64,000 nt of DNA, taken from NCBI GenBank assembly GCA_002788805.1, contig PFRZ01000009.1, positions 1,464 to 65,463 on the forward strand, in the 5' to 3' direction. The notes below the pieces were generated by a model. That model saw nothing but the letters and a program-made list of their open reading frames with translations. It did not search any database and was not told where the DNA came from. This DNA is from Candidatus Roizmanbacteria bacterium CG_4_9_14_0_2_um_filter_35_15. Lineage in GTDB: Bacteria > Patescibacteriota > Microgenomatia > UBA1406 > GWC2-37-13. Positions 2,967 to 52,844 of the stretch are shown here, piece by piece (the first letter of the stretch is position 1; each line of letters begins with the position of its first letter). The position numbers and the translations under genes are program-made.

Positions 2967-2971
2967 AATTT

Positions 2972-3056
2972 AGTCTATAAAGTTTATAAAGTCTTTAAAG
3001 TTTATAAAGTACTTTTCTTTATAGACTTTACGACTTTATGACTTTACGAACTCTTT
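2972..3056. repeat. Palindromic array of the 9-nt unit ATAAAGTNN (family A) between two minus-strand genes
   Basis: agtctataaagtttataaagtctttaaagtttataaagt / loop / ctttatagactttacgactttatgactttacgaac. Confidence 0.8.
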
Positions 3057-4536
3057 AGACTTTCTCCGTTACTCTATATTTTAGCTTTTTTCCCAATAAA
3101 ATTCTAGTATGAGCATCAAGGGCGGGAAGCGAGGAAAAAAAGAAAGAAACAATCGGCAAAAAATACCATTGAACAATGAGCATCGGTAGATAAAAAAGGC
3201 TGGTTTTCTGATTCACTTTACGACGGATTTGAATGTCTAAGTAAATATAAAGAATTAAAAATATTGTCGACAAGGTCAAGATTAAAGCTGAGGCTTTTGG
3301 CAGAATAAATCCAAGAACAGTTTTTTTAAAAATAGGATTGATTAAAGGAGGGACAGACGCAGAAAGAGTGAGAATAAAAAAAGACACTGGCCAGAATAAA
3401 TGGGTCTCGGCGATAAATAATAATTTTTTTAGTTTCGTTACTAAGTCAATATTTGGACTGTCAAAAATTTTTTTTAAAAAATAACCGACGTCAGATACAC
3501 CCCAAGCCCAACGTTTTTCTTGCTCATAGCGATTAATAAATGTCTTAAAAACAGTTCCAGAAAAAACCGCGTCGCTATTAACAATAGTAAAAAGAGGCAT
3601 AGTTTTAACCTGGTTGCCGAACTTAAAGAACGCCTGGAAAAAAACATGCCAGTCTTCAGGAATGATATCGACGTCCCAAAAGTTAATTGATTTTAATAGC
3701 CAAAAATTAGTTGAGTAGGTAGAGACCTGAATAAGATTTTCTTTTTGAGAAAGAAAAGCCATGCGCAAAATCGAAGAAAGAGTGGCTTGAATCCTAACAA
3801 AAAGAGGTAGTTTCCAGAAATTGTTATAAAGAAGAACTGGCGCCCAATAAAAATGATAAAGTCGATTTTTATCTCTAAGAAATTCAAAAGTGAGATAGGA
3901 GAAGTAATTCTTAGGAAGAGAACTATCAGCATCACAGATAGTTACTAAAGACAGTTTATCAGATAAGTTATTTTTCTTTAGGCACTGGTCAATGATTTTT
4001 GCGGCATAAGTTTGATTACTAGCTTTACCCGGCTCCTCATTGTCTTCAAGTGTATGATAGGTAATCAATATCTCTTTAAAGAATCTTTGGAATTTATTTT
4101 TTAAAAAAATTCCTTTTTCTCTTGCTTCTTTTTCTCTTTCCTCAAAAGCGAGAATTAAAAATATTTTCTTTTTTCTTGGATAGTTATTGTTAACTAGCGT
4201 TTTTATGGTTGACTGAAGCATATGGAGCGGTTCTTGATAGTTAGGAATAATAACGAAGTGATTAATGGCAGAAATTTTTTTATTTTTATTTATTTTTTTT
4301 TGATAATTGATTTTTTGATGATACTCTATTTCCTTAAAGGATAAAACCGCTGAGTAGGCAGTAATAATTGATTTATAAAAAAAATAAAGATCAAAGGCGA
4401 TGATAAAATAGGCGACGATTGCCGGATGAAAAGGCGAAAGCCAGAGTGGAAATGTGATTAAAATCCATGAACCAATCGGGACAACAATTTCCAGCAGTCT
4501 TTGAAAAAGTCTCGACCCAATAATCCGTTTTGTCAT
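3055..4536 (-). CDS. Membrane-embedded processive family-2 glycosyltransferase (cellulose/chitin synthase-like)
   Basis: N- and C-terminal TM segments, VIIPNYQEP, ICDADS, and the Q(Q/R)xRW-type motif EQEKRWAWG. Confidence 0.7.
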   Translation of the reverse strand: MTKRIIGSRLFQRLLEIVVPIGSWILITFPLWLSPFHPAIVAYFIIAFDLYFFYKSIITAYSAVLSFKEIEYHQKINYQKKINKNKKISAINHFVIIPNYQEPLHMLQSTIKTLVNNNYPRKKKIFLILAFEEREKEAREKGIFLKNKFQRFFKEILITYHTLEDNEEPGKASNQTYAAKIIDQCLKKNNLSDKLSLVTICDADSSLPKNYFSYLTFEFLRDKNRLYHFYWAPVLLYNNFWKLPLFVRIQATLSSILRMAFLSQKENLIQVSTYSTNFWLLKSINFWDVDIIPEDWHVFFQAFFKFGNQVKTMPLFTIVNSDAVFSGTVFKTFINRYEQEKRWAWGVSDVGYFLKKIFDSPNIDLVTKLKKLLFIAETHLFWPVSFFILTLSASVPPLINPIFKKTVLGFILPKASALILTLSTIFLILYIYLDIQIRRKVNQKTSLFYLPMLIVQWYFLPIVSFFFSSLPALDAHTRILLGKKLKYRVTEKV

Positions 4537-4576
4537 GAAGATATTATACTACAGAGTTCAATTCTTAAGTTTAAAA

Positions 4577-4593
4577 CTCACGCCGGGGGTGAG
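4577..4593 (+). repeat. GC-rich REP-like motif, copy 1 (CTCACGCCGGGGGTGAG)
   Basis: The shared core CAC(G/T)CCGGGGGTGAG(G/T)T occurs three times within 1.6 kb of AT-rich DNA. This copy contributes ..NSPPA and the stop codon of the GT2 gene. Confidence 0.7.
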
Positions 4594-5285
4594 TTACTAA
4601 ATTCTTTTTTTCCAAAAAATAAAAATAGCTTGATGAGATTAATCAATCCAATAGAAAAAATGTCAGTCATTTTTTTCCTATGATATTTAAGATCTGTACT
4701 AAGACCCCATTTCCAATGAGTATTAATGCCAGAATGAGGAAAGCACAAAACATTCTTTTTATTTTTTAACATAAATAGGTTAATCTTTGATTCCAATTCC
4801 CATCCTTTAGTTGAATTATTGAGTATAGTAAGTAAGTGATTTTTTTTGATAATTCTTTCACCAGTTGCTAAAACATCACCTCGAGTAAGCTTTACAAATA
4901 ATGGTGCTTTAATTCTTCGTAAAATTAACATATCAATGTCTGGATTTTGTTGGATAATTTTTATAGCTTCTTCAATTTCACTATGATTTAAATTACGAAG
5001 ATCAGCATCTAATAATAGAATTAGACTACCTTGAGTATATTTTAACCCTTCAAAAATAGCATTTGATTTACCAACGTTTTGTTTTAAACGAATATATTCA
5101 ATTTTTGAATAACGTTTTCTTATATTATTTGATTTGTTTTTGTCAGATGCATCATCGATACAAATCACCTCAAATATATTCTTAACTTTGATCACTTCAT
5201 CTAATACTTTATAAAGACGCTCTCCTTCATTCCAAAAAGGAATAATACAGGACACTTTATTTTTTGAATCTTTATTTCGAATCAT
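4578..5285 (-). CDS. Family-2 glycosyltransferase (DPM/DPG-synthase-like)
   Basis: VSCIIPFWNE, ICIDDASDKN, LLLDADL. The start was moved to the internal Met (MIRNKDSK), because the longer ORF begins right at the REP-like motif. Confidence 0.7.
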   Translation of the reverse strand: MIRNKDSKNKVSCIIPFWNEGERLYKVLDEVIKVKNIFEVICIDDASDKNKSNNIRKRYSKIEYIRLKQNVGKSNAIFEGLKYTQGSLILLLDADLRNLNHSEIEEAIKIIQQNPDIDMLILRRIKAPLFVKLTRGDVLATGERIIKKNHLLTILNNSTKGWELESKINLFMLKNKKNVLCFPHSGINTHWKWGLSTDLKYHRKKMTDIFSIGLINLIKLFLFFGKKEFSNSPPA

Positions 5286-5309
5286 ACATAGATTATACAA
5301 TATTAAAAA

Positions 5310-5327
5310 CCTCACCCCCGGAGTGAT
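5310..5327 (-). repeat. GC-rich REP-like motif, copy 2 (reverse complement: TCACTCCGGGGGTGAGG)
   Basis: Same core as 4577-4593 and 6144-6161, in the opposite orientation. Confidence 0.7.
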
Positions 5328-5336
5328 GGATAGGCT

Positions 5337-6014
5337 TTACCAACGATCTATATGCTTAATATGTTCTAATGATTTTTGATAATCAGCGTTATCAAATACA
5401 AATTTTTTGTAGCGAAGTTTATCGTTATTAAAAAGGCCTAATATAAAATCTGGATTGCTCAGTTTTTGAGAACTATTTGGAAAATATTCTTTAAAAGATG
5501 ACCACGGGTAGTTTTCTAATTTATCTATACTTTTAATTAATCCGTCAGAATAAGGATTGAGATGAATGTAACGAGATACATGTTTTAACTGTTCCTCGCT
5601 TTTTATTAACACGGCTTTAAATCTAGGAAGAAATATGGGTCCCTTTCTTTCGAATTTTATATTGAAATATCTCGTAAAGGAATTTAAAGTATCACCAATA
5701 AATTTACTAATACCATTTTCGCTTAATTGTTTTAAGAGAAAATGAAAATGCGTTTGCATTAAACAGTAACTTAAAATTTCTACTTTAAAATAAGCCGAAA
5801 TAAGAATTTCTTTTAAGATTAAGTTTTTGTTTATGTCTATTAGTCTTTTATAGTCAGAAAATCTTAATCGAGCTTTTAATGATCGATAATATCGAGATAT
5901 CTCCAAAAACGTGGAAGGCAAATGATTATTAGTAAATATTTGTTTTGACTCTATAGTTTTATTAAAAACATGATAATATTCTCCGTTGATAAAATTTATT
6001 CTTCTTTTCGGCAT
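5337..6014 (-). CDS. IS200-like Y1 HUH transposase, REP-associated tyrosine transposase (RAYT)-like
   Basis: HUH motif in LMQTHFHFLL, catalytic Tyr context VSRYIHLNP, downstream YPWSSF, N-terminal GEYYHVFNK. At 225 aa it is longer than an IS200 TnpA. Confidence 0.8.
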   Translation of the reverse strand: MPKRRINFINGEYYHVFNKTIESKQIFTNNHLPSTFLEISRYYRSLKARLRFSDYKRLIDINKNLILKEILISAYFKVEILSYCLMQTHFHFLLKQLSENGISKFIGDTLNSFTRYFNIKFERKGPIFLPRFKAVLIKSEEQLKHVSRYIHLNPYSDGLIKSIDKLENYPWSSFKEYFPNSSQKLSNPDFILGLFNNDKLRYKKFVFDNADYQKSLEHIKHIDRW

Positions 6015-6143
6015 ATATAGAAGTATTTTGAAGGCTTTATTTATTTTTGTCTATAGACTATATGCTACAAAATATATATTTTAGATTGTTAATACAAGAT
6101 TATTTTATCAATATACTATCATTCATACCGGGAATGAGAGAAT

Positions 6144-6161
6144 CGCACGCCGGGGGTGAGG
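6144..6161 (+). repeat. GC-rich REP-like motif, copy 3 (CGCACGCCGGGGGTGAGG)
   Basis: Same core. It lies between the helicase stop and the RAYT-like gene. Confidence 0.7.
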
Positions 6162-6167
6162 TTTGGA

Positions 6168-9101
6168 TTACTGCCAGGCTTCGCAGATGATTTTATATGG
6201 ACAGAAATCACACCAACGACCGACTTTGGGATTAAAACCATTGGTTCTTATTTGAGCGATGACTTTTTCAATATCAGCCTTAGCCGATTTTAAATCCTCG
6301 CTGGTTTTCGTGAGAGAAACTTTTTCCATTGCTTGAAGATAATAAAAAGTCAGTTTCACCTGATCAAGTTTTTTCTTATATAGACCTTTGTCAGTGGCCG
6401 CTAAAGCATAAATGGTTAGTTGCCAATCTTTTTTCAGTTTTTTTCCCTCTGGTTTTTTCCCGGTTTTATAATCGATAATTTCAATTTGATTATTTGCTAA
6501 ACGGTCAACTCGATCAATTTTTCCAGTCAGATAGATATCGTTGGTCAGTTTGATTTTAAAGAGCTTTTCCAAATCAATCGTGACAACACTTTTTTTATGG
6601 AATTTTTCTAAATAAGTTTTCAGAATTGTTTCCCCTTCTTTTTTCATTCTTATCTCATGAGATGAGGAAACATAGCCCAAAGGAATCCAGTTCTGCTGAT
6701 AAATCTCTAAAATTTCTTTAGCGCCAATATTTTTATTTTGGAGAAATTCTTGATAAAACTTTTGTAATGTTTTATGAATAGTATTACCAAAAGAAAGAGC
6801 GGCTGAAGGCGTGGTTGGCACCCGTAAAAGATACTGATATTTATATTGAAGCGGACAAAGCTGGTAACTTTGCAGTTGACTATAAGAAAAATTAGAGAGA
6901 ATAAACTTATTTTTGACGATTCTTTCCGGAACTTTTTTATAATCAAAAATTGACAGCTGTTGTTTTTCCTCTTTTTTTAAAGAGGCAACTTTTTTTATCA
7001 TTTCTTCGCCTACGGCTTCGTTGACAAAAGGAGAAAGTTTCTGTTCTCTTTTTCCTTCTCCATAAAACTTAGATGCCGTAAAGAAAGCTTTATCTTTAGC
7101 CCTAGTTATTCCTACATAAAAAAGCCGCCTTTCTTCTTCTTGGTGATAATCGCCTTCTGGCAAAATTTCTTTTATTAAAGGCTGAGGAATAGGAATTATC
7201 TCTCTTTTTTCATAGGTGGGAAAGCGGCCACGGGTTAGATTAACAAGAAAAACCAGCGGAAACTCCAGGCCTTTCGAAGAATGAACTGTTAAAAGGTTGA
7301 CAGCATTATATGAGCTAATATCGGTTTGGCTGACAATCGGCGATTCACCCAGTTCAAGACTCATATCAAGATAGTCAACTACAGCAAAAACCGAAGCATC
7401 CTCGTGTTCTGACTCATAAGCCTTCAGTTTGTTAAAAAATTTTGAGATGTTGAGAGCGATTTTTTCTTCTCGTTCGCTCTTGTAGTTAACCAGTTTGGGA
7501 AGATATTGGGAGTCTTCAAGAAAATAAAAGAGGATTTGACCGGCAGTTTCTTTTTTGATTAAAGATAGATGGCGGACAATCATCTTGAAAATTAACGATA
7601 ATTTTTTTCTTGTTTCTTGTTTGAGAAAAGGCAGATAATTTTTATAGATCGAAAAATCAGTTTGATAATAGTCCTTTTCATAAAAACTAAGATAAATTTC
7701 CATTGACTTAAAAAGAGATAGATTAGTTCTTTTACCAAAAGATAGTAAAAAACTTAGATCTTTTTCATCTAAAGAAAAGATATTCATTGCTAAAACGCGG
7801 TATAAAGAAGTCGAGTCTTCAAGATCAGCGAGAGTTTTAAGATAGGCAATTAAGTCTTTAACCTCTGGTTGTTTTAAAAGCATGCCCGGCCCCAAAAACT
7901 GATAAGGAATACCTTTTCTGGCGAAACTTCTGATAAATGGCTCGGAGTGAGCATTGGCACGGGTGAGGATAGCGAAGTCGGAAAATCGATAGAATTTAGA
8001 TAGCTTTAAAATTTCGTTAGCGACGTAGTCAGCCTCTTCTTCGACAGATTGAGATAGATAGAGAGTTATTGGTGATTGGTTACTAGTTATTAGTGACTGG
8101 TTATTGGCGATGAGCTTTTTAGAAATTCCCAGTTTGGCTTCCAGAGTGTCTGGGTCATTGTGTTTAATCAGTCGGTAGGCGGTGTCAAGAATTAGTTGAT
8201 TGGAACGATAGTTTTTTAATAGGGTAATCTGTTTGGCTTGGGAATAGTCTTTCATAAAGGTCAAAATATTGGAGACCGAGGCGCCACGGAATTTGTAGAT
8301 CGCTTGGGAATCATCTCCGACAACAGTAAGGAAAGGATTCTTTTTTGGGAGACAGAGCAGTTTGATTAGTTCGTATTGAGCAATATTAGTATCTTGAAAT
8401 TCGTCAATTAAAACATAGTGGAACTGTTGCCGGTATTTTTTTAAGAGATTGTTTCTTGTTCTAAAAAGCTTGAGTAGATAATAAATCAGATCAGAGAAAT
8501 CCATCAGTCCTTCTTTTTCTTTTAGTGTTTGATATCTGTGGTAGGCTTTTGCCAGCTCTACATTTTTTTCTAACTCGGTTTTATCTTCTTCATTTTTGAT
8601 TTTTGATTTTTGATTTTTAATATATTTATCGTATTCTTCCGGCGACACATCCTCATCTTTAATTCTTGAGAAATGCTGTAAAAGACTAGCTAAAAATTTA
8701 TTGGGATTACCTAAGGGACGGAAGTAGTTTAGATCAAAGAGAAATAAGTTCTGCCGAAGAAAGATAATTGTCTCTGCTTCGGTCATCAGACGGAAACCGG
8801 AGTTAAGGCCAATATGATGAACTTCTTGCTTAAGGACATCATTAGCAAAAGAATGAAAGGTAGAAATCCACATCTGAAAATAGCCATAGGGTATCGCTTT
8901 ATCAACTCTTTTCTCCATTTCTGATGCTGCTTTTTCTGTAAAAGTGAGAGCAAGAATTTCTTCGGGCCTAGCAAGGTTTTTTTGAATTAAGTATTTGATT
9001 TTTTCAGTAATGACAGTGGTTTTTCCCGTGCCTGCTCCGGCAACAATCAGAAGCGGTCCTTGATTATATTCCACCGCCTGTTTTTGTTCGTTATTTAACA
9101 T
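6168..9101 (-). CDS. UvrD/Rep-family helicase fused to a C-terminal RecB/Cas4-like PD-(D/E)XK nuclease with a Cys cluster
   Basis: AGAGTGKTT, VLIDEFQDTN, VGDDSQAIYKFRGA, VHSSKGLEF, YVGITRAK. The C-terminus has CPLQYKY .. IDYKTGK .. CDFCPYKIIC. Confidence 0.8.
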   Translation of the reverse strand: MLNNEQKQAVEYNQGPLLIVAGAGTGKTTVITEKIKYLIQKNLARPEEILALTFTEKAASEMEKRVDKAIPYGYFQMWISTFHSFANDVLKQEVHHIGLNSGFRLMTEAETIIFLRQNLFLFDLNYFRPLGNPNKFLASLLQHFSRIKDEDVSPEEYDKYIKNQKSKIKNEEDKTELEKNVELAKAYHRYQTLKEKEGLMDFSDLIYYLLKLFRTRNNLLKKYRQQFHYVLIDEFQDTNIAQYELIKLLCLPKKNPFLTVVGDDSQAIYKFRGASVSNILTFMKDYSQAKQITLLKNYRSNQLILDTAYRLIKHNDPDTLEAKLGISKKLIANNQSLITSNQSPITLYLSQSVEEEADYVANEILKLSKFYRFSDFAILTRANAHSEPFIRSFARKGIPYQFLGPGMLLKQPEVKDLIAYLKTLADLEDSTSLYRVLAMNIFSLDEKDLSFLLSFGKRTNLSLFKSMEIYLSFYEKDYYQTDFSIYKNYLPFLKQETRKKLSLIFKMIVRHLSLIKKETAGQILFYFLEDSQYLPKLVNYKSEREEKIALNISKFFNKLKAYESEHEDASVFAVVDYLDMSLELGESPIVSQTDISSYNAVNLLTVHSSKGLEFPLVFLVNLTRGRFPTYEKREIIPIPQPLIKEILPEGDYHQEEERRLFYVGITRAKDKAFFTASKFYGEGKREQKLSPFVNEAVGEEMIKKVASLKKEEKQQLSIFDYKKVPERIVKNKFILSNFSYSQLQSYQLCPLQYKYQYLLRVPTTPSAALSFGNTIHKTLQKFYQEFLQNKNIGAKEILEIYQQNWIPLGYVSSSHEIRMKKEGETILKTYLEKFHKKSVVTIDLEKLFKIKLTNDIYLTGKIDRVDRLANNQIEIIDYKTGKKPEGKKLKKDWQLTIYALAATDKGLYKKKLDQVKLTFYYLQAMEKVSLTKTSEDLKSAKADIEKVIAQIRTNGFNPKVGRWCDFCPYKIICEAWQ
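8065..8108. repeat. 8-nt-period array inside the helicase ORF (gttattgg tgattggt tactagtt attagtga ctggttat)
   Basis: Read directly. It encodes NNQSLITSNQSPITL on the minus strand. Confidence 0.6.
8592..8623. repeat. Tandem ATTTTTGA octamers inside the helicase ORF
   Basis: atttttgatttttgatttttgatttttaat encodes IKNQKSKIKNEE on the minus strand. Confidence 0.7.
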
Positions 9102-9251: not shown

Positions 9252-10436
9252 ATGGCACAAGGTGTATTTCAGAGGAATAAACCTCATTTAAATATTGGAA
9301 CAATTGGTCATGTAGACCACGGAAAAACCACTTTAACTTCGGCGATTCATTATGTTCTTTCCAAAAAAGGTCAAGCACAGTTTTTAAAGTATGAAGATAT
9401 TGATAAAGCTCCAGAGGAAAGAGCTAGAGGCGTTACCATTAATCTTCACCACAGCGAATACGAAACCGATAAGCGTCATTACGCTCACATTGACGCTCCA
9501 GGACATGCTGACTATATTAAAAACATGATTACTGGAGCAGCCCAGATGGATGGAGCGATTTTAGTCGTTTCTGCGCCAGATGGACCGATGCCGCAAACCA
9601 GAGAGCATATTCTTTTAGCTCGTCAGGTTAATGTACCGGCCATTATTGTCTTTTTAAATAAAACTGACATGGTGGCTGATAAAGAAATTCTTGATCTGGT
9701 TGAGATGGAGGTTCGCGATCTGTTAACGAAATATAAATTTCCTGGAGACAAAATTCCGGTGATTCGCGGATCAGCTCTTAAAGCATTAGCTGATGATCCA
9801 GAAGCAATTAAGTCGATTGAAGAACTAATTGCCAAAGTTGACGAATATATTCCAGAGCCGGTCAGACCAGTTGACAAACCGTTCTTAATGCCCATTGAAG
9901 ACGTTTTCACTATTTCCGGTCGAGGAACTGTGGTTACCGGAAGAGTAGAAAGAGGAATCTGCAAGATTAACGATGAGGTGGAAATTGTGGGTATTAAAGA
10001 AACGAAAAAAACCGTCGTCACCGGAGTGGAGATGTTTAGAAAAACTCTTGATGAGGCGAGAGCAGGGGACAATGTTGGTCTACTTTTAAGAGGAGTGGAA
10101 AAAGACGATGTTTTAAGAGGTCAAGTAGTGGCCAAACCAGGCTCAATTACTCCTCATACTGAATTTGAGGCGGAGATCTATGTCTTAACTAAAGAAGAAG
10201 GTGGTCGTCATACTCCTTTTTTCAAAGGCTATCGACCACAGTTCTATATCAAAACCACCGATATTACCGGTGAAGTTCAGTTGCCGGCGGGAGTGGAAAT
10301 GGTTATGCCAGGAGACAATATTAAGATTACCGCTAAACTAATCTATCCGGTGGCAATGGAAGAGGGACTAAAGTTCGCTATTCGTGAGGGTGGCCATACG
10401 GTCGGAGCAGGAGTAGTGATTAAAATCATTAAATGA
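9252..10436 (+). CDS. tuf: Elongation factor Tu
   Basis: [28 protein letters not shown]; full-length at 394 aa. Confidence 0.97.
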
Positions 10437-10505
10437 TTCCAATCTACGAATGAATTCGAATCAACTAATATTTGTAGATTAGTATAAATTAGTAGATTAG
10501 AATCT
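10436..10505 (+). repeat. 70-nt dispersed repeat, family C, copy 1
   Basis: attccaatctacgaatgaattcgaatcaactaatatttgtagattagtataaattagtagattagaatct. Its reverse complement recurs at 27689-27758. Confidence 0.85.
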
Positions 10506-10521
10506 TAATTTGCACCTTAAT

Positions 10522-13414: not shown

Positions 13415-13822
13415 ATGGAATCAAAAACCTATCTAAAAAATTTAAAAATTTCACCTAAAAAATTGAGGTTTTTATTACCGGCAGTGAAAAAAATGAAACC
13501 GGCTAAATCTTTGGACTACCTGTTTTATACAAACAATAAACCAGCTAAAGTACTGTATCAAGTAATAAAGTCAGCGATATCTAACGCAAAAACTCTCTTA
13601 AAAGTCAGTGATGATATGTTAAACTTTAAGCTTTTAACAGTAGAAGAAGGACAAAAACTAAAGAGATCTCGACCAGGCGGAAGAGGCACTGCAAAACCAA
13701 TAATAAAAAGAATGAGCCATATTAAAATAGTACTTGAAGCATCAGAAATTCCAAATTCTAAGCACCAAATTACAAATAAATCCCAAATTCAAAATTCTAA
13801 ATCCAAAACAAAAAAAATTTAG
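13415..13822 (+). CDS. rplV: 50S ribosomal protein L22 with a repeat-encoded C-terminal tail
   Basis: LKISPKKLRFLLPAVKKM.. core. The last ~25 aa (SEIPNSKHQITNKSQIQNSKSKTKKI) are encoded by the repeat at 13746-13806. Confidence 0.9.
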   Translation: MESKTYLKNLKISPKKLRFLLPAVKKMKPAKSLDYLFYTNNKPAKVLYQVIKSAISNAKTLLKVSDDMLNFKLLTVEEGQKLKRSRPGGRGTAKPIIKRMSHIKIVLEASEIPNSKHQITNKSQIQNSKSKTKKI

Positions 13823-13866
13823 TATTTAGAGTTTATTTGGGATTTGGAATTTAGTATTTAGAATTT
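13746..13866. repeat. Imperfect palindrome of 8-nt-period AAAT-core units centred near the rplV stop codon
   Basis: The left arm ccaaattc taagcacc aaattaca aataaatc ccaaattc aaaattct pairs against the right arm tatttaga gtttattt gggatttg gaatttag tatttaga. Confidence 0.7.
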
Positions 13867-13875
13867 ATAAAAAAT

Positions 13876-15135: not shown

Positions 15136-15394
15136 AGTTGTCTCAAACAAAATGCTAAAAACAGTTGTTGTTATGGTGGAGAGAAAGTTTCGCTATCCTT
15201 TATATAAGAAAGTAATTACCAGACACAAAAAATATCAAGTACATAATGAGGATTTACAGCTAAATGTAGGCGATATAGTTAGAATTAGCGAAACGAAGCC
15301 AATATCGAAAAACAAGCATTTTATTGTTATTGAGAAGATAAATGACAAATCTCAAATAACAAATAACAAATCAAGTTCAAATGTCAAAAAATAA
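15113..15394 (+). CDS. rpsQ: 30S ribosomal protein S17 with a repeat-encoded C-terminal tail
   Basis: GKVVSNKMLKTVVVMVERKFRYPLYKK. The tail DKSQITNNKSSSNVKK is encoded by the repeat left arm. Confidence 0.9.
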   Translation: MKKILIGKVVSNKMLKTVVVMVERKFRYPLYKKVITRHKKYQVHNEDLQLNVGDIVRISETKPISKNKHFIVIEKINDKSQITNNKSSSNVKK

Positions 15395-15457
15395 ATTTTT
15401 AAACATTTGATATTAAAAATTTGTTATTGATTTGAAATTTGAAATTTGTCATTTGAA
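15340..15457. repeat. Family B palindromic 8-nt-period element centred on the rpsQ stop codon
   Basis: tcaaatgt..(TAA)..acatttga forms the inner stem. The right arm aaacatttgatattaaaaatttgttattgatttgaaatttgaaatttgtcatttgaa is nearly identical to 30205-30263. Confidence 0.8.
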
Positions 15458-15474
15458 TTTTTTTTAATTTTAAT

Positions 15475-15849
15475 ATGTTGCAAACAAGGTCGATCTTAAA
15501 TGTCGCTGATAACACCGGCGCCAAAAAAGTATCAATGATTGGTATGCCAGCCAAAGGTAATCGAAGATATGCTTATATCAGCGATGCGATCACTATTTCC
15601 GTCAAAGAGGCGATTCCTTTTGCTCAAGTCAAAAAGGGCGAGGTGCTGCCGGCGGTTGTTGTTAGAACAAAGAAAGAAAAAAAAAGAAAAGACGGCAGTT
15701 ATATACGTTTTGATGACAACGCCTGTGTTATTTTAGCCGGTAAAGGGATGAAGGATCCTAAAGGGACAAGAGTATTTGGCCCGATTGCTAAAGAAATAAA
15801 AGATAATGGTTTTGCCAAAATTGCTAGTTTAGCAGAGGAAATATATTAG
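15475..15849 (+). CDS. rplN: 50S ribosomal protein L14
   Basis: MLQTRSILNVADNTGAKK. Confidence 0.96.
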   Translation: MLQTRSILNVADNTGAKKVSMIGMPAKGNRRYAYISDAITISVKEAIPFAQVKKGEVLPAVVVRTKKEKKRKDGSYIRFDDNACVILAGKGMKDPKGTRVFGPIAKEIKDNGFAKIASLAEEIY

Positions 15850-15884
15850 TTTTTAAAGTTATAAAGTTCATAAAGTTTATAAAG
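15850..15884 (+). repeat. Family A array (ATAAAGTTN, 9-nt period) filling the rplN-rplX spacer
   Basis: tttttaaagtt ataaagttc ataaagttt ataaagaaATG. Confidence 0.85.
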
Positions 15885-15886
15885 AA

Positions 15887-16192
15887 ATGAAGATTAAAAA
15901 AGGAGATAAAGTCAAAGTTATGGCAGGGAAAGATAAAGGTAGAGAAGGGAAAGTAGAAAAAGTTTATTTAAAGAGCGATAAAGTTTTAATCGCTAATATT
16001 AATATCTATAAAAGACATGTAAAAAAAAGCGAACAGATGCCTAAAGGTGGAATAGTAGATGTGCCGAGACCATTAGCCGTTTCTAAAGTGATAGTCATCT
16101 GTTCTAAATGCGGTAAGACAACGAGAATAGGTTATAAGATAGAAAAAAGTAAAAAATATAGGGTATGTAAGAAATGTAAGAGCAAGATTTGA
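15887..16192 (+). CDS. rplX: 50S ribosomal protein L24 (with C-terminal CxxC..CxxC ribbon)
   Basis: MKIKKGDKVKVMAGKDKGREGKV (KOW); CSKCGK..CKKCKS. Confidence 0.9.
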   Translation: MKIKKGDKVKVMAGKDKGREGKVEKVYLKSDKVLIANINIYKRHVKKSEQMPKGGIVDVPRPLAVSKVIVICSKCGKTTRIGYKIEKSKKYRVCKKCKSKI

Positions 16193-16222: not shown

Positions 16223-16765
16223 ATGAATTTCAAGGACTATTACAATCAGGAGGTTAAGAAGAAATTGATGACCGATGTTAAGATAGCTAATATAATAGCA
16301 GTTCCAAAAATCGTCAAAATCGTCATTAATGTCGGTGCTGGTGAAGCGGTCACTAACAAAGGAGCGATAGATAAAATTAAAGACCAGTTGGCGACGATTA
16401 CCGGTCAACGTCCGGTAGTCACCAAGGCGAGAGTTTCTATATCAGCTTTTAAAATAAGAAAAGGATTGCCTATTGGTGTTAAGGTTACTCTTCGAGGAAA
16501 AAAGATGTTTGATTTTCTTGAGAAGTTAATAAAGATTGTCATTCCCGGAGTTCGAGATTTTAAAGGTATTTCCGAAAAAAACCTTGATCAACATGGAAAT
16601 TTAAATCTTGGTTTTTCTGAACAGACGATTTTTCCCGAGATAGACTTTGACAAAATTGATAAAATAAGAGGCTTAGAGGTAACAGTTGTTACTAATGCGA
16701 GGAGTCAAGTGTATGGTAAAAAGTTATTTGAGTTATTGGGAATACCATTTAGAAAAAGTTTATAA
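16223..16765 (+). CDS. rplE: 50S ribosomal protein L5
   Basis: VPKIVKIVINVGAGEA, RGLEVTVVT. Confidence 0.95.
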   Translation: MNFKDYYNQEVKKKLMTDVKIANIIAVPKIVKIVINVGAGEAVTNKGAIDKIKDQLATITGQRPVVTKARVSISAFKIRKGLPIGVKVTLRGKKMFDFLEKLIKIVIPGVRDFKGISEKNLDQHGNLNLGFSEQTIFPEIDFDKIDKIRGLEVTVVTNARSQVYGKKLFELLGIPFRKSL

Positions 16766-16792
16766 AGTTATAAAGTTTATAAAGTCATAAAG
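16757..16792 (+). repeat. Family A array spanning the rplE stop and reaching the rpsN ATG
   Basis: aagtttataaagttataaagtttataaagtcataaagATG. Confidence 0.85.
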
Positions 16793-16978
16793 ATGGCGAA
16801 AACATCAGATGAAGTAAAATTTAAAAAAAAACAGAAGTATCAAATTAGATATCATAATCGCTGTTTTTTTTGCGGTCGATCTCGGGGTTATTTAAGGCGC
16901 TTTGGTATGTGTCGCATATGTTTTAGAGAAAAAGCGTTAAAAGGAGAAATTCCTGGAGTTAAAAAATTGACTTGGTAA
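16793..16978 (+). CDS. rpsN: 30S ribosomal protein S14, zinc-binding type Z (61 aa)
   Basis: [23 protein letters not shown]. Confidence 0.92.
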
Positions 16979-25886: not shown

Positions 25887-26317
25887 CAGGATTAACTTTA
25901 TCAACAAAACCGATAAGAGAAAGAAATATTAAGAGACAGTGGCACTTAATTGATGTTTCAGGAAAGATTTTAGGAAGAATTACGCCGCAGATTGCCAGAT
26001 TATTACAAGGTAAACATAAATCTAATTATTCTTCTTCTCTTGATGTGGGGGATTATGTCGTTGTTGTTAATGCCGGCAAGGTGATTGTTTCTGGAAAGAA
26101 GAAGAAAACAAAGATTTACACCTATTATTCTGGTTATCCTGGTGGATTAAGAAAAGAGTATTTTAGTAAGTTGATTGAACAAAATCCAGGGAAGATTGTT
26201 AAGAATGCTGTCTCGGGCATGTTGCCGAAAAATAAATTAAGAGATATGAGATTAAAACGATTATATATTTTTGCTGATGATAATCATCCTTATAAAGAAA
26301 AGTTTATAAAGTTATAA
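25883..26317 (+). CDS. rplM: 50S ribosomal protein L13
   Basis: RQWHLIDVSGKILGRI, YYSGYPGGL, VSGMLPKNKL. Confidence 0.93.
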   Translation: MTGLTLSTKPIRERNIKRQWHLIDVSGKILGRITPQIARLLQGKHKSNYSSSLDVGDYVVVVNAGKVIVSGKKKKTKIYTYYSGYPGGLRKEYFSKLIEQNPGKIVKNAVSGMLPKNKLRDMRLKRLYIFADDNHPYKEKFIKL

Positions 26318-26338
26318 AGTTCATAAAGTTCATAAAGT
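26290..26338 (+). repeat. Family A array spanning the rplM 3' end and stop and reaching the rpsI ATG
   Basis: ttataaagaaaagtttataaagttataaagttcataaagttcataaagtATG. Confidence 0.85.
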
Positions 26339-26794
26339 ATGGCGAAAAAAGAAAAAAATTTAAAGTATTATGAGGCGGTCGGCCGAAGAAAAAAAGCCGT
26401 CGCCCGAATAAGATTATACCTTGTTGGTAAAGATAAGATCGCTTCTGTCAATAACCACAAAATAAAAGCGGGCGAGATATTAATTAATAATCATCCTTTA
26501 GAAAAAATAATCAATACCACCTACGAAAGAACATTTTTTTTATCACCTTTAGTTTTGACTAATAATACAGAGAGATTTGCTATTTCCATTCTTGTTCAAG
26601 GTGGCGGTTATCAGGGTCAACTAGAGGCAATGGTCCATGGTTTAGCTAGAGCGCTTGAGTTAGTTGATAAAGAAACCTATCGATCAATCTTAAAAAAACA
26701 AGGCCTATTAACAAGAGACGCGAGAAAAAGAGAAAGAAGAAAGGTGGGAACGGGAGGCAAAGCAAGAAGAAAAAAACAGTCACCAAAGAGATAA
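26339..26794 (+). CDS. rpsI: 30S ribosomal protein S9
   Basis: GRRKKAVARIRL, GGGYQGQLEA, LTRDARKRERRKVG..KARRKKQSPKR. Confidence 0.93.
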   Translation: MAKKEKNLKYYEAVGRRKKAVARIRLYLVGKDKIASVNNHKIKAGEILINNHPLEKIINTTYERTFFLSPLVLTNNTERFAISILVQGGGYQGQLEAMVHGLARALELVDKETYRSILKKQGLLTRDARKRERRKVGTGGKARRKKQSPKR

Positions 26795-26812: not shown

Positions 26813-27697
26813 ATGAAATTTTTGTCAATTATTATTGTTTCTTTCAACACGAGGCTAATCACTTTAAAATGCCTTCGTCATCTAAAAAATAACTTTAAAA
26901 AATATCCACTAGATTATGAAATCATTATAGTTGACAATGGTTCTATTGATGGGAGCATCCAGATGCTTAAGGAAGAACAAAAAAATTGGACAAATCTACA
27001 ACTAATTCTTTCCAAAAAAAACCTCGGTTATGGTAAAGCCAATAATCTTGGTGTTCAGAAAAGCAAAGGACAGTATGTCTTATACTTAAATTCTGACGCA
27101 ATCATAAACGATATCGATTTCCGCGATTTAGTCAATATTTTTGAAGCCCAGCCACAGATAGGCGCTCTGACAGTAAAAGTAGTCCTTAAAAATGGAGAAA
27201 TTGATCCAGCCTCTCATCGGGGTTTTCCGACTTTATGGTGGTCTTTTTGCTATTTTATTGGTTTAGAGAAGTTATTTTATCGAACTTTTCTATTAAACAA
27301 ACTTTTTGGGGGTTACCATTTAACTAATAGAAATCTTTCAACTGTCCACGAGATTGATGCCGGAACCGGTGCTTTTTTTCTGACGAAAAAAGAGATTATT
27401 GACCGCATTGGTGGTTTTGACAAGGATTATTTTGCCTATGGAGAAGATATCGAAATGGCTTATCGGATAAAAGAACTCGGCTATAAAATCCTTTATTATC
27501 CGCTTTGGCAGGTGCTACATCTTAAATACTCCTCTGGCTTAAAGAAAAATGATAAAAAAACCAGAGAGATGACAAGATTTCATTTTTACCAGGCAATGAA
27601 GATTTTTTATACTAAACACTACGCTAAAAAAAATTTTTGGTTGGTTAATCAATTAGTTTATCTGGCGATTGATTTAAAAAGTAATTTAAGATTCTAA
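26813..27697 (+). CDS. Family-2 glycosyltransferase
   Basis: LSIIIVSFNT, IIVDNGSIDGS, YLNSDA, GAFFL..., EDIEMAYR. Confidence 0.8.
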   Translation: MKFLSIIIVSFNTRLITLKCLRHLKNNFKKYPLDYEIIIVDNGSIDGSIQMLKEEQKNWTNLQLILSKKNLGYGKANNLGVQKSKGQYVLYLNSDAIINDIDFRDLVNIFEAQPQIGALTVKVVLKNGEIDPASHRGFPTLWWSFCYFIGLEKLFYRTFLLNKLFGGYHLTNRNLSTVHEIDAGTGAFFLTKKEIIDRIGGFDKDYFAYGEDIEMAYRIKELGYKILYYPLWQVLHLKYSSGLKKNDKKTREMTRFHFYQAMKIFYTKHYAKKNFWLVNQLVYLAIDLKSNLRF

Positions 27698-27758
27698 TCT
27701 ACTAATTTATGCTAATCAACGAATATTGGTTGATTAGAATTCATTCGTAGATTGGTAT
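27689..27758 (-). repeat. 70-nt dispersed repeat, family C, copy 2 (inverted relative to 10436-10505)
   Basis: The reverse complement aligns to copy 1 with about 6 mismatches by hand alignment. It supplies the last residues and the stop codon of the GT2 gene. Confidence 0.85.
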
Positions 27759-27774
27759 TATTTATTGGTTATTT

Positions 27775-28869
27775 ATGAAAAAAATCGGCATTGATGCAAG
27801 GCTTTATTCACAAACAGGAGTAGGGACATATCTTCAAAATCTGTTATTTTTTCTTGATAAAAAAAATCCTAAAGATAAGATTTATTATATTTATCTTCGA
27901 GAAAAAGATGCTTCTAATCTTAGATTTAAGAGCAAAAATCTTATTAAAAGAATAGCTGATTACCAATGGCATAGTTTTTCGGAACAGATAAGCTTTTATC
28001 GTTTGCTGATTAAAGATAATCTAGATCTGATGCACTTCACTTATTTTAGCTATCCGGTTTTATATCGAAGAAAATTTATTATTACTATTCATGATCTAAC
28101 ACCTTTGCTTTTTAAAACCGGCAAAGCATCAACAAAAAATCCATTAATCTACAAATTGAAATATTTATTCTTTAAAAAAGTGTTGTCGTCACAGATAAAA
28201 AATTCTTCAGCCATTATTACTCCTTCAAAAAGTATTAAGAAACAGATAGTTAAATATTATGGAGGAAAATATCAAAAAAAAATCTTCCCGATTTATGAGG
28301 GAGTTAATCACCAGTTATTTAGAGCAAAAGAAAATCAAGAGTTAAAAAAGAAATTTAGCAAACTTTTTTTCATCTATGTAGGTAATTTTTATCCGCATAA
28401 AAATGTCGAAAGATTAATTAAATCGTTCTCCAAGATCGGAGAAGATATTCAGTTAATCCTTCTTGGTCCAAATGACTATTTTCAATCAAAGATTGTACAG
28501 TTGATTAATCAACTGTACATGAAAGACAAAGTTGTCTTCTATAATAATCCTACTTACGCTGATTTAATCTTTTTTTATAGAAATACGCAAGCATTAATTC
28601 ATCCGTCAATGTCAGAAGGGTTTGGTCTGCCTTTGATTGAGGCGGCTTATTTCAACTGTTCGGTTATTGCCTCTGATATTCCTGTTTTCAAAGAAATTTT
28701 AGGCAATAGCTATTTGTCATTTGATCCTTATTCAGTTGATGACATAACAAAAAAGATAGAGTATTTTCTTGAGAAAAAACCAAAATACGATTATAAAGAC
28801 ATTGTTAATAAATACTCTTTCGAGAAAATGGCTAAAGAAACTTTAAAAATTTATGACAAGTTTTTATGA
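27775..28869 (+). CDS. Family-4 (GT-B) glycosyltransferase
   Basis: IHPSMSEGFGLPLIEAAYFNCSVIASD (E-x7-E region). Confidence 0.8.
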   Translation: MKKIGIDARLYSQTGVGTYLQNLLFFLDKKNPKDKIYYIYLREKDASNLRFKSKNLIKRIADYQWHSFSEQISFYRLLIKDNLDLMHFTYFSYPVLYRRKFIITIHDLTPLLFKTGKASTKNPLIYKLKYLFFKKVLSSQIKNSSAIITPSKSIKKQIVKYYGGKYQKKIFPIYEGVNHQLFRAKENQELKKKFSKLFFIYVGNFYPHKNVERLIKSFSKIGEDIQLILLGPNDYFQSKIVQLINQLYMKDKVVFYNNPTYADLIFFYRNTQALIHPSMSEGFGLPLIEAAYFNCSVIASDIPVFKEILGNSYLSFDPYSVDDITKKIEYFLEKKPKYDYKDIVNKYSFEKMAKETLKIYDKFL

Positions 28870-30193: not shown

Positions 30194-30263
30194 ATAAATG
30201 TTTTAAACATTTGATGTTTATCATTTGTTATTGATTTGAAATTTGAGCTTTGTCATTTGAAAT
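30140..30263. repeat. Family B palindromic 8-nt-period element centred on the GT4 stop codon
   Basis: The left arm is translated. The right arm aaacatttgatgtttatcatttgttattgatttgaaatttgagctttgtcatttgaa matches 15402-15457. Confidence 0.8.
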
Positions 30264-30269
30264 TATTCT

Positions 30270-37260: not shown

Positions 37261-37716
37261 ATGAAAATCAATAAGAATGTTCTGATTATTGGTGCGGTCT
37301 TGTTAGTTTTATTAGCTATTGGTTATTGGTTATTGGGAAGAAAAAATATTCCCAAAAATAATCAAGAAACAATTTCTCCAACCGAAATTGTCCTTCCAAC
37401 GATAGACAGTTCGGTCAAGGTCGATTTACAGTCGGTTTCTGGTGGTAAAGACGTGACATTATCGATCAACAATATTCCTTCTGGAACTGACTCGGTTGAC
37501 TATGAACTTTCTTATCAGACCGCTCAACAAGGTATCCAAGGAGTAATCGGGACAATTGACGTTTCCAATCAAAGCGATTACGAGAAAAAAATTACTTTAG
37601 GAACCTGTTCATCAGGTACCTGTGTCTATCATCAGGTAGTGGGAAAGATAAAATTGACTCTTAAATTTACTGGAGATTATGGAGAAAAGTTATTTGAGAA
37701 AGAATACGAACTATAA
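37261..37716 (+). CDS. Hypothetical secreted or membrane-anchored protein
   Basis: N-terminal signal/TM helix (VLIIGAVLLVLLAIGYWLL). No recognisable family. Confidence 0.55.
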   Translation: MKINKNVLIIGAVLLVLLAIGYWLLGRKNIPKNNQETISPTEIVLPTIDSSVKVDLQSVSGGKDVTLSINNIPSGTDSVDYELSYQTAQQGIQGVIGTIDVSNQSDYEKKITLGTCSSGTCVYHQVVGKIKLTLKFTGDYGEKLFEKEYEL

Positions 37717-37750
37717 ATTTTTGATATTTAATATTTAATCTTTAATATTT
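37717..37750 (+). repeat. Family D 8-nt-period repeat (tttttgatatttaatatttaatctttaatattt)
   Basis: A near-identical inverted copy lies at 60227-60260. Confidence 0.7.
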
Positions 37751-37774
37751 ACAAAGGGGGTGCGTTAGCATACT

Positions 37775-52803: not shown

Positions 52804-52805
52804 TT

Positions 52806-52844
52806 AGTTTATAAAGTTCATAAAGTCTATAAAGTTTATAAAGT
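52806..52844. repeat. Family A array between the convergent PBP and serS genes, providing the serS stop codon
   Basis: agtttataaagttcataaagtctataaagtttataaagtag. Confidence 0.85.

What the first reader, a model, noticed from the sequence alone, without database searches (positions are those of the whole stretch)
5310..6161. RAYT-like Y1 transposase with flanking inverted REP-like motifs in a CPR-like genome
ORF 5337-6014 has the HUH motif (THFHF), the YIHLNP tyrosine context and the YPWSS motif. These are characteristic of REP-associated tyrosine transposases rather than short IS200 TnpA.

It is flanked by the 15-18 nt GC-rich motif CAC(G/T)CCGGGGGTGAGGTT in inverted orientation, with a third copy 0.7 kb away. 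Three copies of such a GC-rich word in AT-rich DNA are very unlikely by chance.

The RAYT-REP association is mostly characterised in Proteobacteria. A domesticated RAYT with its own REP family in a reduced genome would be notable.
Basis: partly seen in the sequence, partly recalled or inferred. Interest (0 to 1): 0.65.

Follow-up and report, generated by a model that had tools for sequence, protein, structure and literature searches.

The report
Mobile RAYT-like nuclease module in Roizmanbacteria
The gene and its three GC-rich repeats are real, but they form a small, laterally moving RAYT-like nuclease module of an already described kind (a "TIRtron") carrying a passenger gene, not a domesticated transposase with a genome-wide REP family.

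Summary
ORF 5337-6014 (- strand, 225 aa) is a HUH/Y1 protein. The motif CAC[G/T]CCGGGGGTGAG occurs three times, at 4579-4596, 5308-5325 and 6146-6163; shuffles expect none.

The protein is RAYT-like rather than IS200-like: its motifs are YIHLNP and WSS, and its best solved-structure match by sequence and fold is E. coli TnpA_REP (4ER8). The gene sits between perfect 15-bp inverted repeats.

No REP family was found. All copies lie within 1.6 kb, the other 62 kb hold none, and there is no GTAG foot. The repeats contain GGGGTGAG, matching the GGGGWSAS consensus of published "TIRtrons" (TIRYT; TnpA_Y1 subclass 2.1; RAYT Group 1).

Six of seven relatives carry lineage-specific inverted hairpins at the same positions. 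The 1.62-kb block (repeat, Y1, repeat, GT2 glycosyltransferase, repeat) is an insertion between a helicase stop codon and a glycosyltransferase promoter. The nearest relative has an empty site. A more distant lineage carries the block at 80-93% DNA identity against 53-75% in the flanks.

Verdict: a new member of a known kind, in a candidate-phyla-radiation (CPR) bacterium. It is laterally mobile and single-copy in the window.

The parts
4550..6167 (-). The whole inserted module, about 1,618 bp: repeat 1, Y1 gene, repeat 2, GT2 passenger gene, repeat 3. It lies between the helicase stop codon and the -10 box of the downstream glycosyltransferase.
   Evidence: Sliding-window DNA identity to locus L147 is 80-93% inside the block and 53-75% outside. 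The edges were mapped by alignment to L147 and to the empty site in L151. Empty sites are seen in L151 and L149.
6146..6163 (+). Repeat copy 1 (C). Its outer edge is 4 nt downstream of the helicase stop codon, about 130-150 nt upstream of the Y1 start. On the gene-sense strand it reads AACCTCAC-CCCCGGC-GTGcGatt.
   Evidence: It is conserved at the same place in the syntenic relatives L147, L010 and L145. In the window it folds weakly as a hairpin (z = +0.7 to +1.6).
6124..6136 (-). Degenerate fourth copy of the motif (CATTCCCGGTATG), in tandem with copy 1.
   Evidence: 3 mismatches to the core. The equivalent in L147 is CACTCCCAGTGTGAG.
6049..6080 (-). Conserved promoter- or operator-like block upstream of Y1 (TTTTGTAGCATATAGTCTATAGAC). 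It contains the perfect palindrome GTCTATAGAC at 6049-6058.
   Evidence: It stands out as a footprint in the alignment of four syntenic loci. A different conserved block, TTATAATCCRTTGA, occupies the same place in the other lineages. Its function is inferred.
5337..6014 (-). The Y1/HUH nuclease gene, 225 aa. The HUH histidines are H89 and H91; the catalytic tyrosine is Y149 in RYIHLNP; the tail carries WSS at 171-173.
   Evidence: The catalytic residues are invariant in 34 family members. dN/dS is about 0.15 against L147.
5308..5325 (-). Repeat copy 2 (B), inverted relative to copies 1 and 3. It lies 12 nt after the Y1 stop and is followed by a T run.
   Evidence: It is flagged as terminator-like. 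The equivalent copy in L010 forms a 10-bp-stem hairpin (z = -4.1).
4578..5285 (-). Passenger gene, a family-2 glycosyltransferase of 235 aa starting at the ATG at 5285. Its last six codons and its stop (SNSPPA*) are encoded by repeat copy 3.
   Evidence: Pfam Glycos_transf_2, E=2.3e-22. Relatives carry an epimerase (L010) or an ICMT-like gene (L145) in this slot.
4579..4596 (+). Repeat copy 3 (A), in the same orientation as copy 1. It shares CTCACCCCCGGCGTG 15/15 with copy 1 and has the best hairpin in the window (7-bp stem).
   Evidence: and 48 (z = -1.9 to -2.9). It is conserved just upstream of the PF13632 glycosyltransferase in L147, L010 and L145.
6168..9101 (-). Left flank and insertion target: a UvrD-type helicase with a C-terminal PD-(D/E)XK nuclease domain, 977 aa. 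It is not part of the module.
   Evidence: In L145 its last 24-28 nt are repeated at the far end of the module.
3055..4536 (-). Right flank: a PF13632 glycosyltransferase of 493 aa, with its -10 box (TATAAT) at 4543-4548. It is not part of the module.
   Evidence: It directly follows the helicase in L149 and L151.

Best explanation
This is a compact module of about 1.6 kb built around a RAYT-like HUH/Y1 single-strand DNA nuclease. It is the type published as a "TIRtron" (a TIR-associated tyrosine transposase, TIRYT, roughly TnpA_Y1 subclass 2.1 or RAYT Group 1).

The nuclease gene lies between short GC-rich inverted repeats that carry the GGGGWSAS signature. In most relatives these repeats fold into small hairpins. 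A third copy closes off a passenger glycosyltransferase gene.

Shown here:
- The repeats travel with the gene and differ from lineage to lineage.
- The protein keeps its catalytic residues and is under purifying selection.
- The whole block is an insertion at the 3' end of a helicase gene, is missing from the closest relatives, and has a more recent common ancestry between two lineages than their flanking genomes do.

Inferred:
- The enzyme binds the repeats as single-stranded hairpins.
- It cuts and rejoins DNA next to them through a 5'-phosphotyrosine link (H89/H91/Y149), as E. coli TnpA_REP and IS608 TnpA do.
- This moves the block, rarely, into a preferred site.

It is unresolved whether the working ends are the inverted pair around the gene or the direct outer pair that coincides with the block's edges. 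The repeats are not a dispersed REP family in the sequence available.
For: Protein:
- Pfam Y1_Tnp hit.
- Motifs THFH, YIHLNP and WSS, and the 225-aa length, fit the subclass 2.1 row of Table 1 in PMC6006769.
- The best PDB match by profile and by fold is TnpA_REP 4ER8. The AlphaFold2 model has pLDDT 92.
- H89, H91 and Y149 are invariant in 34 homologs. dN/dS is about 0.15.

Repeats:
- A 15/15 inverted repeat containing GGGGTGAG, which fits the TIRYT consensus GGGGWSAS (PMC3733652; PMC6006769).
- Six of the seven relative loci, like the window, have GC-containing inverted repeats at -100 to -150 and +12 to +48 of the gene, with lineage-specific sequence. Only 2 of 185 control segments do.
- The motif is present (3 or more copies) in all 4 loci with Y1 at this site. 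It is absent (0 copies at up to 2 mismatches) from all 4 syntenic loci without Y1.

Mobility:
- Empty sites in L151 (helicase 83% and GT 84% identical to the window) and in L149.
- Block identity to L147 is 80-93%, against 53-75% in the flanks, with sharp edges.
- dS is 0.68-0.72 for block genes and at least 1.8 for flank genes.
- L146 and L148 carry the gene in different slots of one conserved neighbourhood.

Not a REP family: there are no further copies in 62 kb, even relaxed.
Against: - The whole genome could not be scanned, so a low-copy dispersed family is not excluded.
- The two flanking copies in the window fold poorly as hairpins.
- No C-terminal HTH domain was detected by Pfam, although such a domain is described for subclass 2.1.
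- Subclass membership rests on motifs and length, not on a phylogeny with reference sequences.
- In L145 all three copies are direct rather than inverted.
- In L145 a 24/28-nt direct repeat of the helicase 3' end brackets the block. Known Y1 peel-and-paste transposition does not produce such a repeat.
- The helicase-GT junction also holds unrelated genes without repeats in L150 and L152. The site is therefore a general hot spot, and the block could have moved by host recombination.
Confidence: 0.7

Rival explanations
1. One reading: a canonical RAYT-REP system. A domesticated, vertically inherited RAYT whose flanking repeats belong to a genome-wide REP/REPIN family that it maintains.
For: - The protein's nearest solved relative is TnpA_REP.
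- The flanking copies are inverted, with extra copies nearby including a tandem degenerate one, which recalls a REPtron cluster.
- In the L010 and L145 comparisons the Y1 identity tracks that of neighbouring genes.
- One relative (L146) has a near-perfect extra copy 5.6 kb away.
Against: - No copies in the other 62 kb of the window, and none elsewhere in the 10-20 kb loci of relatives apart from the one in L146, which encodes a conserved MurD motif.
- No GT[AG]G foot.
- Below the NCBIfam RAYT cutoff.
- The 19-mer was found in no Roizmanbacteria genome among GTDB representatives. This is weak evidence, because the source genome may be absent or masked.
- The block is absent from the nearest relative and was laterally acquired.
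Confidence: 0.08
2. An IS200/IS605-type insertion sequence in which the two outer, directly oriented hairpins (copies 1 and 3) are the left and right ends, and the GT2 gene takes the place of tnpB as cargo.
For: - Copies 1 and 3 are direct, share 15/15 nt, and co-vary within each genome (window loop CCCCGGC in both; L010 loop CCCCGAG in both).
- They coincide with the edges of the laterally transferred block.
- The fold is that of Y1 transposases.
Against: - The protein has Y---NP rather than the Y---Q of subclass 1.1, and is 225 aa rather than about 150.
- There is no tnpB.
- It is single-copy in the window.
- In four other lineages only the inverted pair exists.
- L145 shows a 24/28-nt flanking duplication, which IS200/IS605 elements do not make.
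Confidence: 0.15
3. The repeats are ordinary transcription terminators or regulatory sites. The block was shuffled by host recombination at a hot spot of a variable polysaccharide gene cluster, and the Y1 protein plays no part.
For: - Each copy sits just after a stop codon. Copies 2 and 3 are followed by T runs, and copy 2 is flagged terminator-like.
- The same junction holds unrelated genes in L150 and L152.
- The passenger gene differs between relatives.
Against: - The repeats occur only where Y1 occurs (4 of 4 loci against 0 of 4).
- They change sequence in step with Y1 lineage in unrelated genomic contexts.
- The upstream copy lies upstream of the Y1 promoter, not at that gene's end.
- Many relatives' copies lack T runs.
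- The catalytic residues are invariant and the gene is under purifying selection.
- Flank identity of about 65% is too low for easy homologous exchange, and the block edges are sharp.
Confidence: 0.07

Closest known systems
TIRtron / TIRYT (TIR-associated tyrosine transposase), Di Nocera et al. 2013, PMC3733652
   Same: - A RAYT-like Y1 gene flanked at fixed distances by inverted repeats rather than GTAG REPs.
- The repeats contain GGGGWSAS (here GGGGTGAG) and are partly self-complementary.
- Few or no dispersed copies, and occasional dimers or clusters.
   Different: - Found in a CPR (Roizmanbacteria) genome.
- The repeats are short (15-18 bp).
- A third copy encloses a passenger gene.
- Lateral transfer of the whole block, and empty sites, are shown here.
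TnpA_Y1 subclass 2.1 (Quentin et al. 2018, PMC6006769), equated there with RAYT Group 1 (Bertels et al. 2017, PMC5581495)
   Same: - Motifs (N/T)H[FY]H, Y[IV]HLNP and the SS tail.
- Length about 225-238 aa.
- No canonical REP.
- Group 1 is described as one of the two most IS-like RAYT groups.
   Different: - No Bac_DnaA_C, HTH_23 or HTH_28 domain detectable in the tail.
- T replaces N before the HUH in this protein.
- FL stands where W[EQ] or FQ is expected.
- Placement by phylogeny was not done.
E. coli TnpA_REP (RAYT, PDB 4ER8) and its REPtron
   Same: - The best sequence and fold match.
- HUH plus a single tyrosine.
- The gene is bracketed by inverted copies of its presumed substrate.
   Different: - Only 17% identity.
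- No GTAG guide.
- The repeats are not dispersed in the available sequence.
- The gene is not stably resident: it is absent in the nearest relative.
IS200/IS605 family (IS608, ISDra2)
   Same: - The Y1 fold.
- Hairpins near the ends of a mobile unit, with the outer copies in direct orientation.
- A preferred insertion site.
   Different: - A different Y motif and protein length.
- No tnpB.
- Single copy.
- An internal inverted copy.
- A long flanking duplication in one relative.

Membership tests
TnpA_Y1 class 2 (RAYT-like HUH/Y1 nucleases) | An HUH motif and a single catalytic Tyr in a Y---NP motif | tested here: met
   THFH at residues 88-91 and RYIHLNP at 148-154. H89, H91, Y149 and N153 are invariant or nearly so in 34 homologs. 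The definition is from PMC6006769.
TnpA_Y1 class 2 (RAYT-like HUH/Y1 nucleases) | The Y1 transposase fold, closer to TnpA_REP than to IS200-type TnpA | tested here: met
   The AlphaFold2 model has pLDDT 92. Foldseek gives 4ER8 at E=4.5e-8 and TMt 0.70, against about 1e-4 for IS608 and ISDra2. The profile search gives 4ER8 at E=2e-4.
TIRtron / TIRYT; TnpA_Y1 subclass 2.1 | The gene is flanked by terminal inverted repeats carrying GGGGWSAS | tested here: met
   A 15/15 inverted repeat, AAACCTCACCCCCGG / CCGGGGGTGAGGTTT, contains GGGGTGAG. Some relatives' repeats (L013, L143, L146) fit only loosely.
TIRtron / TIRYT; TnpA_Y1 subclass 2.1 | Subclass motifs NH[YF]H, Y[IV]HLNP and the SS tail; median length 238 aa | tested here: met
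   THFH (N in many family members), YIHLNP, WSS, 225 aa, compared with Table 1 of PMC6006769.
TIRtron / TIRYT; TnpA_Y1 subclass 2.1 | A C-terminal HTH-like domain (Bac_DnaA_C, HTH_23 or HTH_28) | tested here: inconclusive
   Pfam finds only Y1_Tnp at E<=0.01. The model shows three C-terminal helices at 188-223, which were not compared on their own.
TIRtron / TIRYT; TnpA_Y1 subclass 2.1 | Clusters with reference subclass 2.1 or Group 1 sequences | not tested
Canonical RAYT with REP/REPIN family (REPtron) | The flanking repeat is a REP: a 5' GT[AG]G at the foot of a hairpin | tested here: not met
   The 5' flanks read AAACCTCAC or TAACTCAC with no GT[AG]G. Two of the three window copies fold no better than shuffles.
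Canonical RAYT with REP/REPIN family (REPtron) | The repeat is dispersed in many intergenic copies across the genome | tested here: not met
   All copies lie within 4579-6163. None is in the other 62 kb at up to 3 mismatches of 18, or up to 2 of the 13-nt core outside coding sequence.
Canonical RAYT with REP/REPIN family (REPtron) | NCBIfam equivalog NF047646 (REP-associated tyrosine transposase) | tested here: not met
   48.5 bits against a cutoff of 80, matching only residues 76-172.
Canonical RAYT with REP/REPIN family (REPtron) | Single-copy, vertically inherited (domesticated) | tested here: not met
   It is single-copy in the window. However, it is absent from the nearest relative L151, and the block's dS of 0.7 against at least 1.8 in the flanks indicates lateral transfer.
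IS200/IS605 insertion sequences | A short TnpA (about 150 aa) with a Y---Q motif | tested here: not met
   225 aa with YIHLNP.
IS200/IS605 insertion sequences | High copy number, often with tnpB | tested here: not met
   tblastn finds one copy in 64 kb. No OrfB/TnpB family appears in any gene table.
IS200/IS605 insertion sequences | Subterminal hairpins in the same orientation at both ends, with no target duplication | tested here: inconclusive
   The outer copies 1 and 3 are direct and mark the block edges. But the pair conserved across the family is inverted, and L145 has a 24/28-nt flanking repeat.

The most novel reading that the evidence does not exclude
The repeats may act as boundaries of exchangeable single-gene cassettes next to the Y1 gene. 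The slot between copy 2 and copy 3 holds a GT2 glycosyltransferase (window, L147), an epimerase (L010) or an ICMT-like methyltransferase (L145), while the Y1 gene and all three repeats stay in place. In that case a HUH nuclease would drive hairpin-bounded cassette exchange in a cell-envelope locus of a CPR bacterium. This would be an integron-like logic run by a different enzyme class. The block would integrate site-specifically at the helicase 3' end, which would explain the 24/28-nt att-like repeat in L145.
Probability: 0.12. Interest if true: 0.75.

Novelty: new member of a known kind. Interest (0 to 1): 0.4.

Why it matters
- **Taxonomic reach.** TIRtron-type Y1 modules are extended to the candidate phyla radiation. 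They form a large family there: 1,939 protein clusters matched in one search, and the named ones are Roizmanbacteria.
- **A clean natural case.** Filled and empty sites, sharp block edges, and repeats that co-vary with the enzyme show that such a module moves as a unit and can carry a passenger gene.
- **An open question made testable.** What RAYT Group 1 / TIRYT proteins do is unknown. This compact system has three defined candidate substrates and would suit biochemical tests.
- **Limits.** It is not evidence for REP-type genome structuring in reduced genomes.

Tried and rejected
1. **Metagenome scan** for CACKCCGGGGGTGAGKT. None had GC below 0.45 and the median GC was 0.66. It did not even return the known locus, so it is uninformative.
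2. **Genome-collection scan** for the 19-mer CACKCCGGGGGTGAGGTTT. It gave 6 hits, all in unrelated taxa. The source genome may be absent or masked, so this is only weak evidence against other exact copies. As a result, the copy count of CAACCYCTGGAGTTG in the complete relative CP066689.1 could not be obtained.
3. **Relaxed core search in the window**. The extra hits at 2-3 mismatches lie inside ORFs or in a GC-rich stretch near 1575, and were rejected as copies.
4. **Terminator reading**. Only copy 2 is flagged, and relatives lack T runs.
5. **Rfam**. No known RNA family was found.
6. **Target duplications**. A systematic search in eight loci found a convincing one only in L145, plus a degenerate remnant in L010. 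The apparent promoter duplication in L146 was dismissed as general promoter similarity.
7. **The extra copy in L146** at 4239-4257 lies in murD and encodes the conserved LHLKGVHN motif. It was not accepted as evidence of dispersal.
8. **Canonical guide tetranucleotide.** None is conserved next to the repeats.
Full report
**Observation**

ORF 5337-6014 on the - strand encodes 225 aa containing MQTHFHFLL, SRYIHLNPY and NYPWSS.

It matches Pfam Y1_Tnp at 30.9 bits, above the cutoff of 23. It matches the NCBIfam RAYT equivalog NF047646 at only 48.5 bits, below the cutoff of 80.

The motif CACGCCGGGGGTGAGGTT, allowing up to 3 mismatches, occurs three times in 64 kb, where shuffles expect none:
- 4579-4596 (+).
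- 5308-5325 (-).
- 6146-6163 (+).

All four local genes are on the - strand, in this order:
- A UvrD/PD-(D/E)XK helicase (6168-9101).
- The Y1 gene.
- A GT2 glycosyltransferase (4578-5285).
- A PF13632 glycosyltransferase (3055-4536).

Each repeat copy sits just after a stop codon. The two copies around Y1 form a perfect 15/15 inverted repeat, 5307-5321 against 6150-6164. The third copy is direct relative to the upstream one and shares 15/15 nt with it. A degenerate fourth copy lies at 6124-6136.

**The organism**

The exact protein occurs on 70 contigs from many samples, always in this context. Across nine assemblies the 1.67-kb region differs by 0-2 SNPs. Named relatives of this protein and of the helicase are Candidatus Roizmanbacteria. 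GC content is about 34%.

**The protein**

- Thirty-four homologs at 47-82% identity keep H89, H91, R148, Y149, H151 and S173 invariant, and the N-terminal YHxFN nearly so.
- A profile of them finds E. coli TnpA_REP (4ER8) at E=2e-4. ISDra2 TnpA follows at 0.04-0.08, over the HUH region only.
- The AlphaFold2 model (pLDDT 92) matches 4ER8 best (E=4.5e-8, TMt 0.70). IS608 and ISDra2 follow near 1e-4.

**The repeats across the family**

I fetched seven further loci holding homologs. In six of the seven the gene is flanked, as in the window (seven of eight loci in all), by inverted copies of a short, lineage-specific, usually hairpin-forming sequence. The upstream copy lies 100-150 nt before the start and the downstream copy 12-48 nt after the stop:

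| Locus | Flanking repeat |
|---|---|
| Window, L147 | CTCAC-CCCCGGN-GTG |
| L010 | CTCAC-CCCCGAG-GTG |
| L013 | CAACCYCTGGAGTTG |
| L143 | CCAACCACGAGGGTTGG |
| L146 | TTTACACCTTTAAGGTGTAAA |
| L148 | AACTCCSGGAGTT |

L145 is the exception: it has three direct copies.

Among 185 random 678-bp segments from the same sequences, only 2 have a comparable GC-containing inverted repeat in their flanks.

Hairpin strength varies. Relatives fold well (z = -4 to -6.7). The window's two flanking copies do not (z about 0 to +1.6), while copy 3 does (z = -1.9 to -2.9). In the window the outer arms are preserved and the inner arms have decayed. The pair therefore behaves as terminal inverted repeats more than as hairpins.

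**Is it a REP family?**

Nothing supports that.
- Every copy lies within 1.6 kb.
- Relaxed searches of the other 62 kb give only coding-region or chance-level hits.
- There is no GT[AG]G foot.
- Relatives' loci of 10-20 kb hold no further copies. The one exception is inside murD of L146, where it encodes the conserved LHLKGVHN motif.

The two collection scans did not help. Whole-genome copy number therefore remains unmeasured.

**Literature match**

Quentin et al. 2018 (PMC6006769) describe TnpA_Y1 subclass 2.1 as follows:
- Median length 238 aa.
- Motifs NH[YF]H and Y[IV]HLNP, and an SS tail.
- No REPs.

They equate this subclass with the TIRYTs of Di Nocera et al. 2013 (PMC3733652). TIRYTs are RAYT-like genes flanked at fixed distances by inverted repeats sharing GGGGWSAS. 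They occur mostly in genomes without repeat families.

The window's repeat contains GGGGTGAG, and the protein's motifs and length fit. Bertels et al. 2017 (PMC5581495) describe the corresponding Group 1 as one of the two most IS-like RAYT groups, with low flanking 16-mer abundance.

I found no paper on these elements in CPR.

**The block is an insertion and is laterally mobile**

I looked up helicase orthologs. The junction between helicase and glycosyltransferase in each syntenic locus is as follows:

| Locus | Identity to window | Between helicase and GT |
|---|---|---|
| L151 | helicase 83%, GT 84% (nearest relative seen) | nothing: stop codon runs straight into the GT promoter |
| L149 | helicase 70%, GT 74% | nothing (21-nt gap) |
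| L150 | helicase 65.5%, GT 71% | an unrelated EamA gene |
| L152 | helicase 67.5%, GT 64% | an unrelated small HTH gene |

None of these four has Y1 or the motif.

By contrast, L147 has flanks only 62-70% identical in protein and 53-75% in DNA. Yet it carries the block at 80-93% DNA identity. The edges are sharp, at the helicase stop codon and at the GT start.

Synonymous divergence tells the same story:
- Block genes (Y1 and GT2), window against L147: dS 0.68-0.72.
- Flank genes, window against L147: dS from 1.8 to saturation.
- Flank genes, window against L151: dS 0.8-1.2.

Y1 has dN/dS of about 0.15. The module at window 4550-6167 therefore has its own, more recent history and is kept functional.

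In L146 and L148 the gene occupies different slots of one conserved neighbourhood. L148 shows an empty FtsW-L21 junction.

**Open points**

- The gene between copies 2 and 3 differs between lineages: GT2 (window, L147), an epimerase on the opposite strand (L010), and an ICMT-like gene (L145). The repeats stay in place throughout.
- Copies 1 and 3 co-vary within genomes.
- In L145 a 24/28-nt direct repeat of the helicase 3' end brackets the whole block. L010 keeps a degenerate remnant. The window and L147 keep none.
- Known Y1 transposition makes no such duplication. Integration may therefore work differently, or the block may carry a copy of its target.

These points allow a more novel cassette-exchange reading, which I rate at about 12%.

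**Mechanism**

The chemistry is inferred. A HUH/Y1 enzyme would bind its cognate repeats in single-stranded form, then cleave and rejoin through a phosphotyrosine, as shown for TnpA_REP and IS608 TnpA.

What is shown here is the following:
- The repeats associate and co-vary with the gene.
- Selection acts on the protein.
- The unit is mobile.

**Verdict**

This is a TIRtron-type RAYT-like module: a new member of a known kind, in a CPR genome, with a passenger gene and clear evidence of lateral movement.

Noticed in passing
L145:775-802 and L145:2237-2264; remnant at about L010:11565-11585: A 24/28-nt direct repeat of the helicase 3' end (ATCTGYGAAGCCTGGCAGTAA...) brackets the whole Y1-plus-passenger block in L145. 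L010 has a degenerate remnant; the window and L147 have none. It looks like an att site or a long target duplication, which is unexpected for a Y1 element.
   Followed up: partly
window 4578-5285; L010:10718-11452; L145:1629-2237: The slot between repeat copies 2 and 3 holds a different gene in each lineage: a GT2 glycosyltransferase, an epimerase on the opposite strand, and an ICMT-like methyltransferase. The Y1 gene and the repeats stay in place.
   Followed up: partly
L146:4239-4257: An 18/19 copy of that lineage's Y1-flanking hairpin (GTACACCTTTAAGGTGTAA) lies inside murD. There it encodes the conserved Mur-ligase motif LHLKGVHN. Whether this is coincidence, the source of the repeat, or a target is unexplained.
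   Followed up: partly
window 10424-10520 and 27674-27770: A 97-nt AT-rich intergenic sequence is repeated in inverted orientation at 86% identity. One copy lies immediately upstream of the S10 ribosomal-protein gene. The other lies between two + strand ORFs (26813-27697 and 27775-28869).
   Followed up: partly
window 2970-3014, 15845-15907, 16757-16793, 26301-26356, 52795-52848: Short tandem arrays of a 9-mer (AGTTTATAAAG / GTTCATAAAG) recur at five places; at least the first (2970-3014) is intergenic. They may be a promoter-associated or factor-binding repeat.
   Followed up: no
window 13746-13871, 15340-15466, 29601-29661, 30142-30270, 51561-51590, 60227-60262, 37708-37751: A family of AT-rich repeats of about 60-70 nt, built from CAAAT-type heptamers, occurs in direct and inverted copies at 72-91% identity.
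   Followed up: no
window 6049-6080; L013, L143, L146 and L148, 40-60 nt upstream of the Y1 start: There are two alternative conserved blocks upstream of Y1. The window group has TTTTGTAGCATATAGTCTATAGAC, with a 10-bp perfect palindrome. The other lineages have TTATAATCCRTTGA. These may be a promoter plus operator, which would suggest regulated expression.
   Followed up: partly
window 1-64000: No tRNA, tmRNA or Rfam family reaches threshold anywhere in the 64 kb. A GC-rich stretch lying outside any ORF of 100 aa or more sits near 1540-1620.
   Followed up: no
L147:3-1777: In L147 the helicase next to the module is split into two ORFs (457 aa and 85 aa). It may be a frameshift or a pseudogene next to the insertion.
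   Followed up: no
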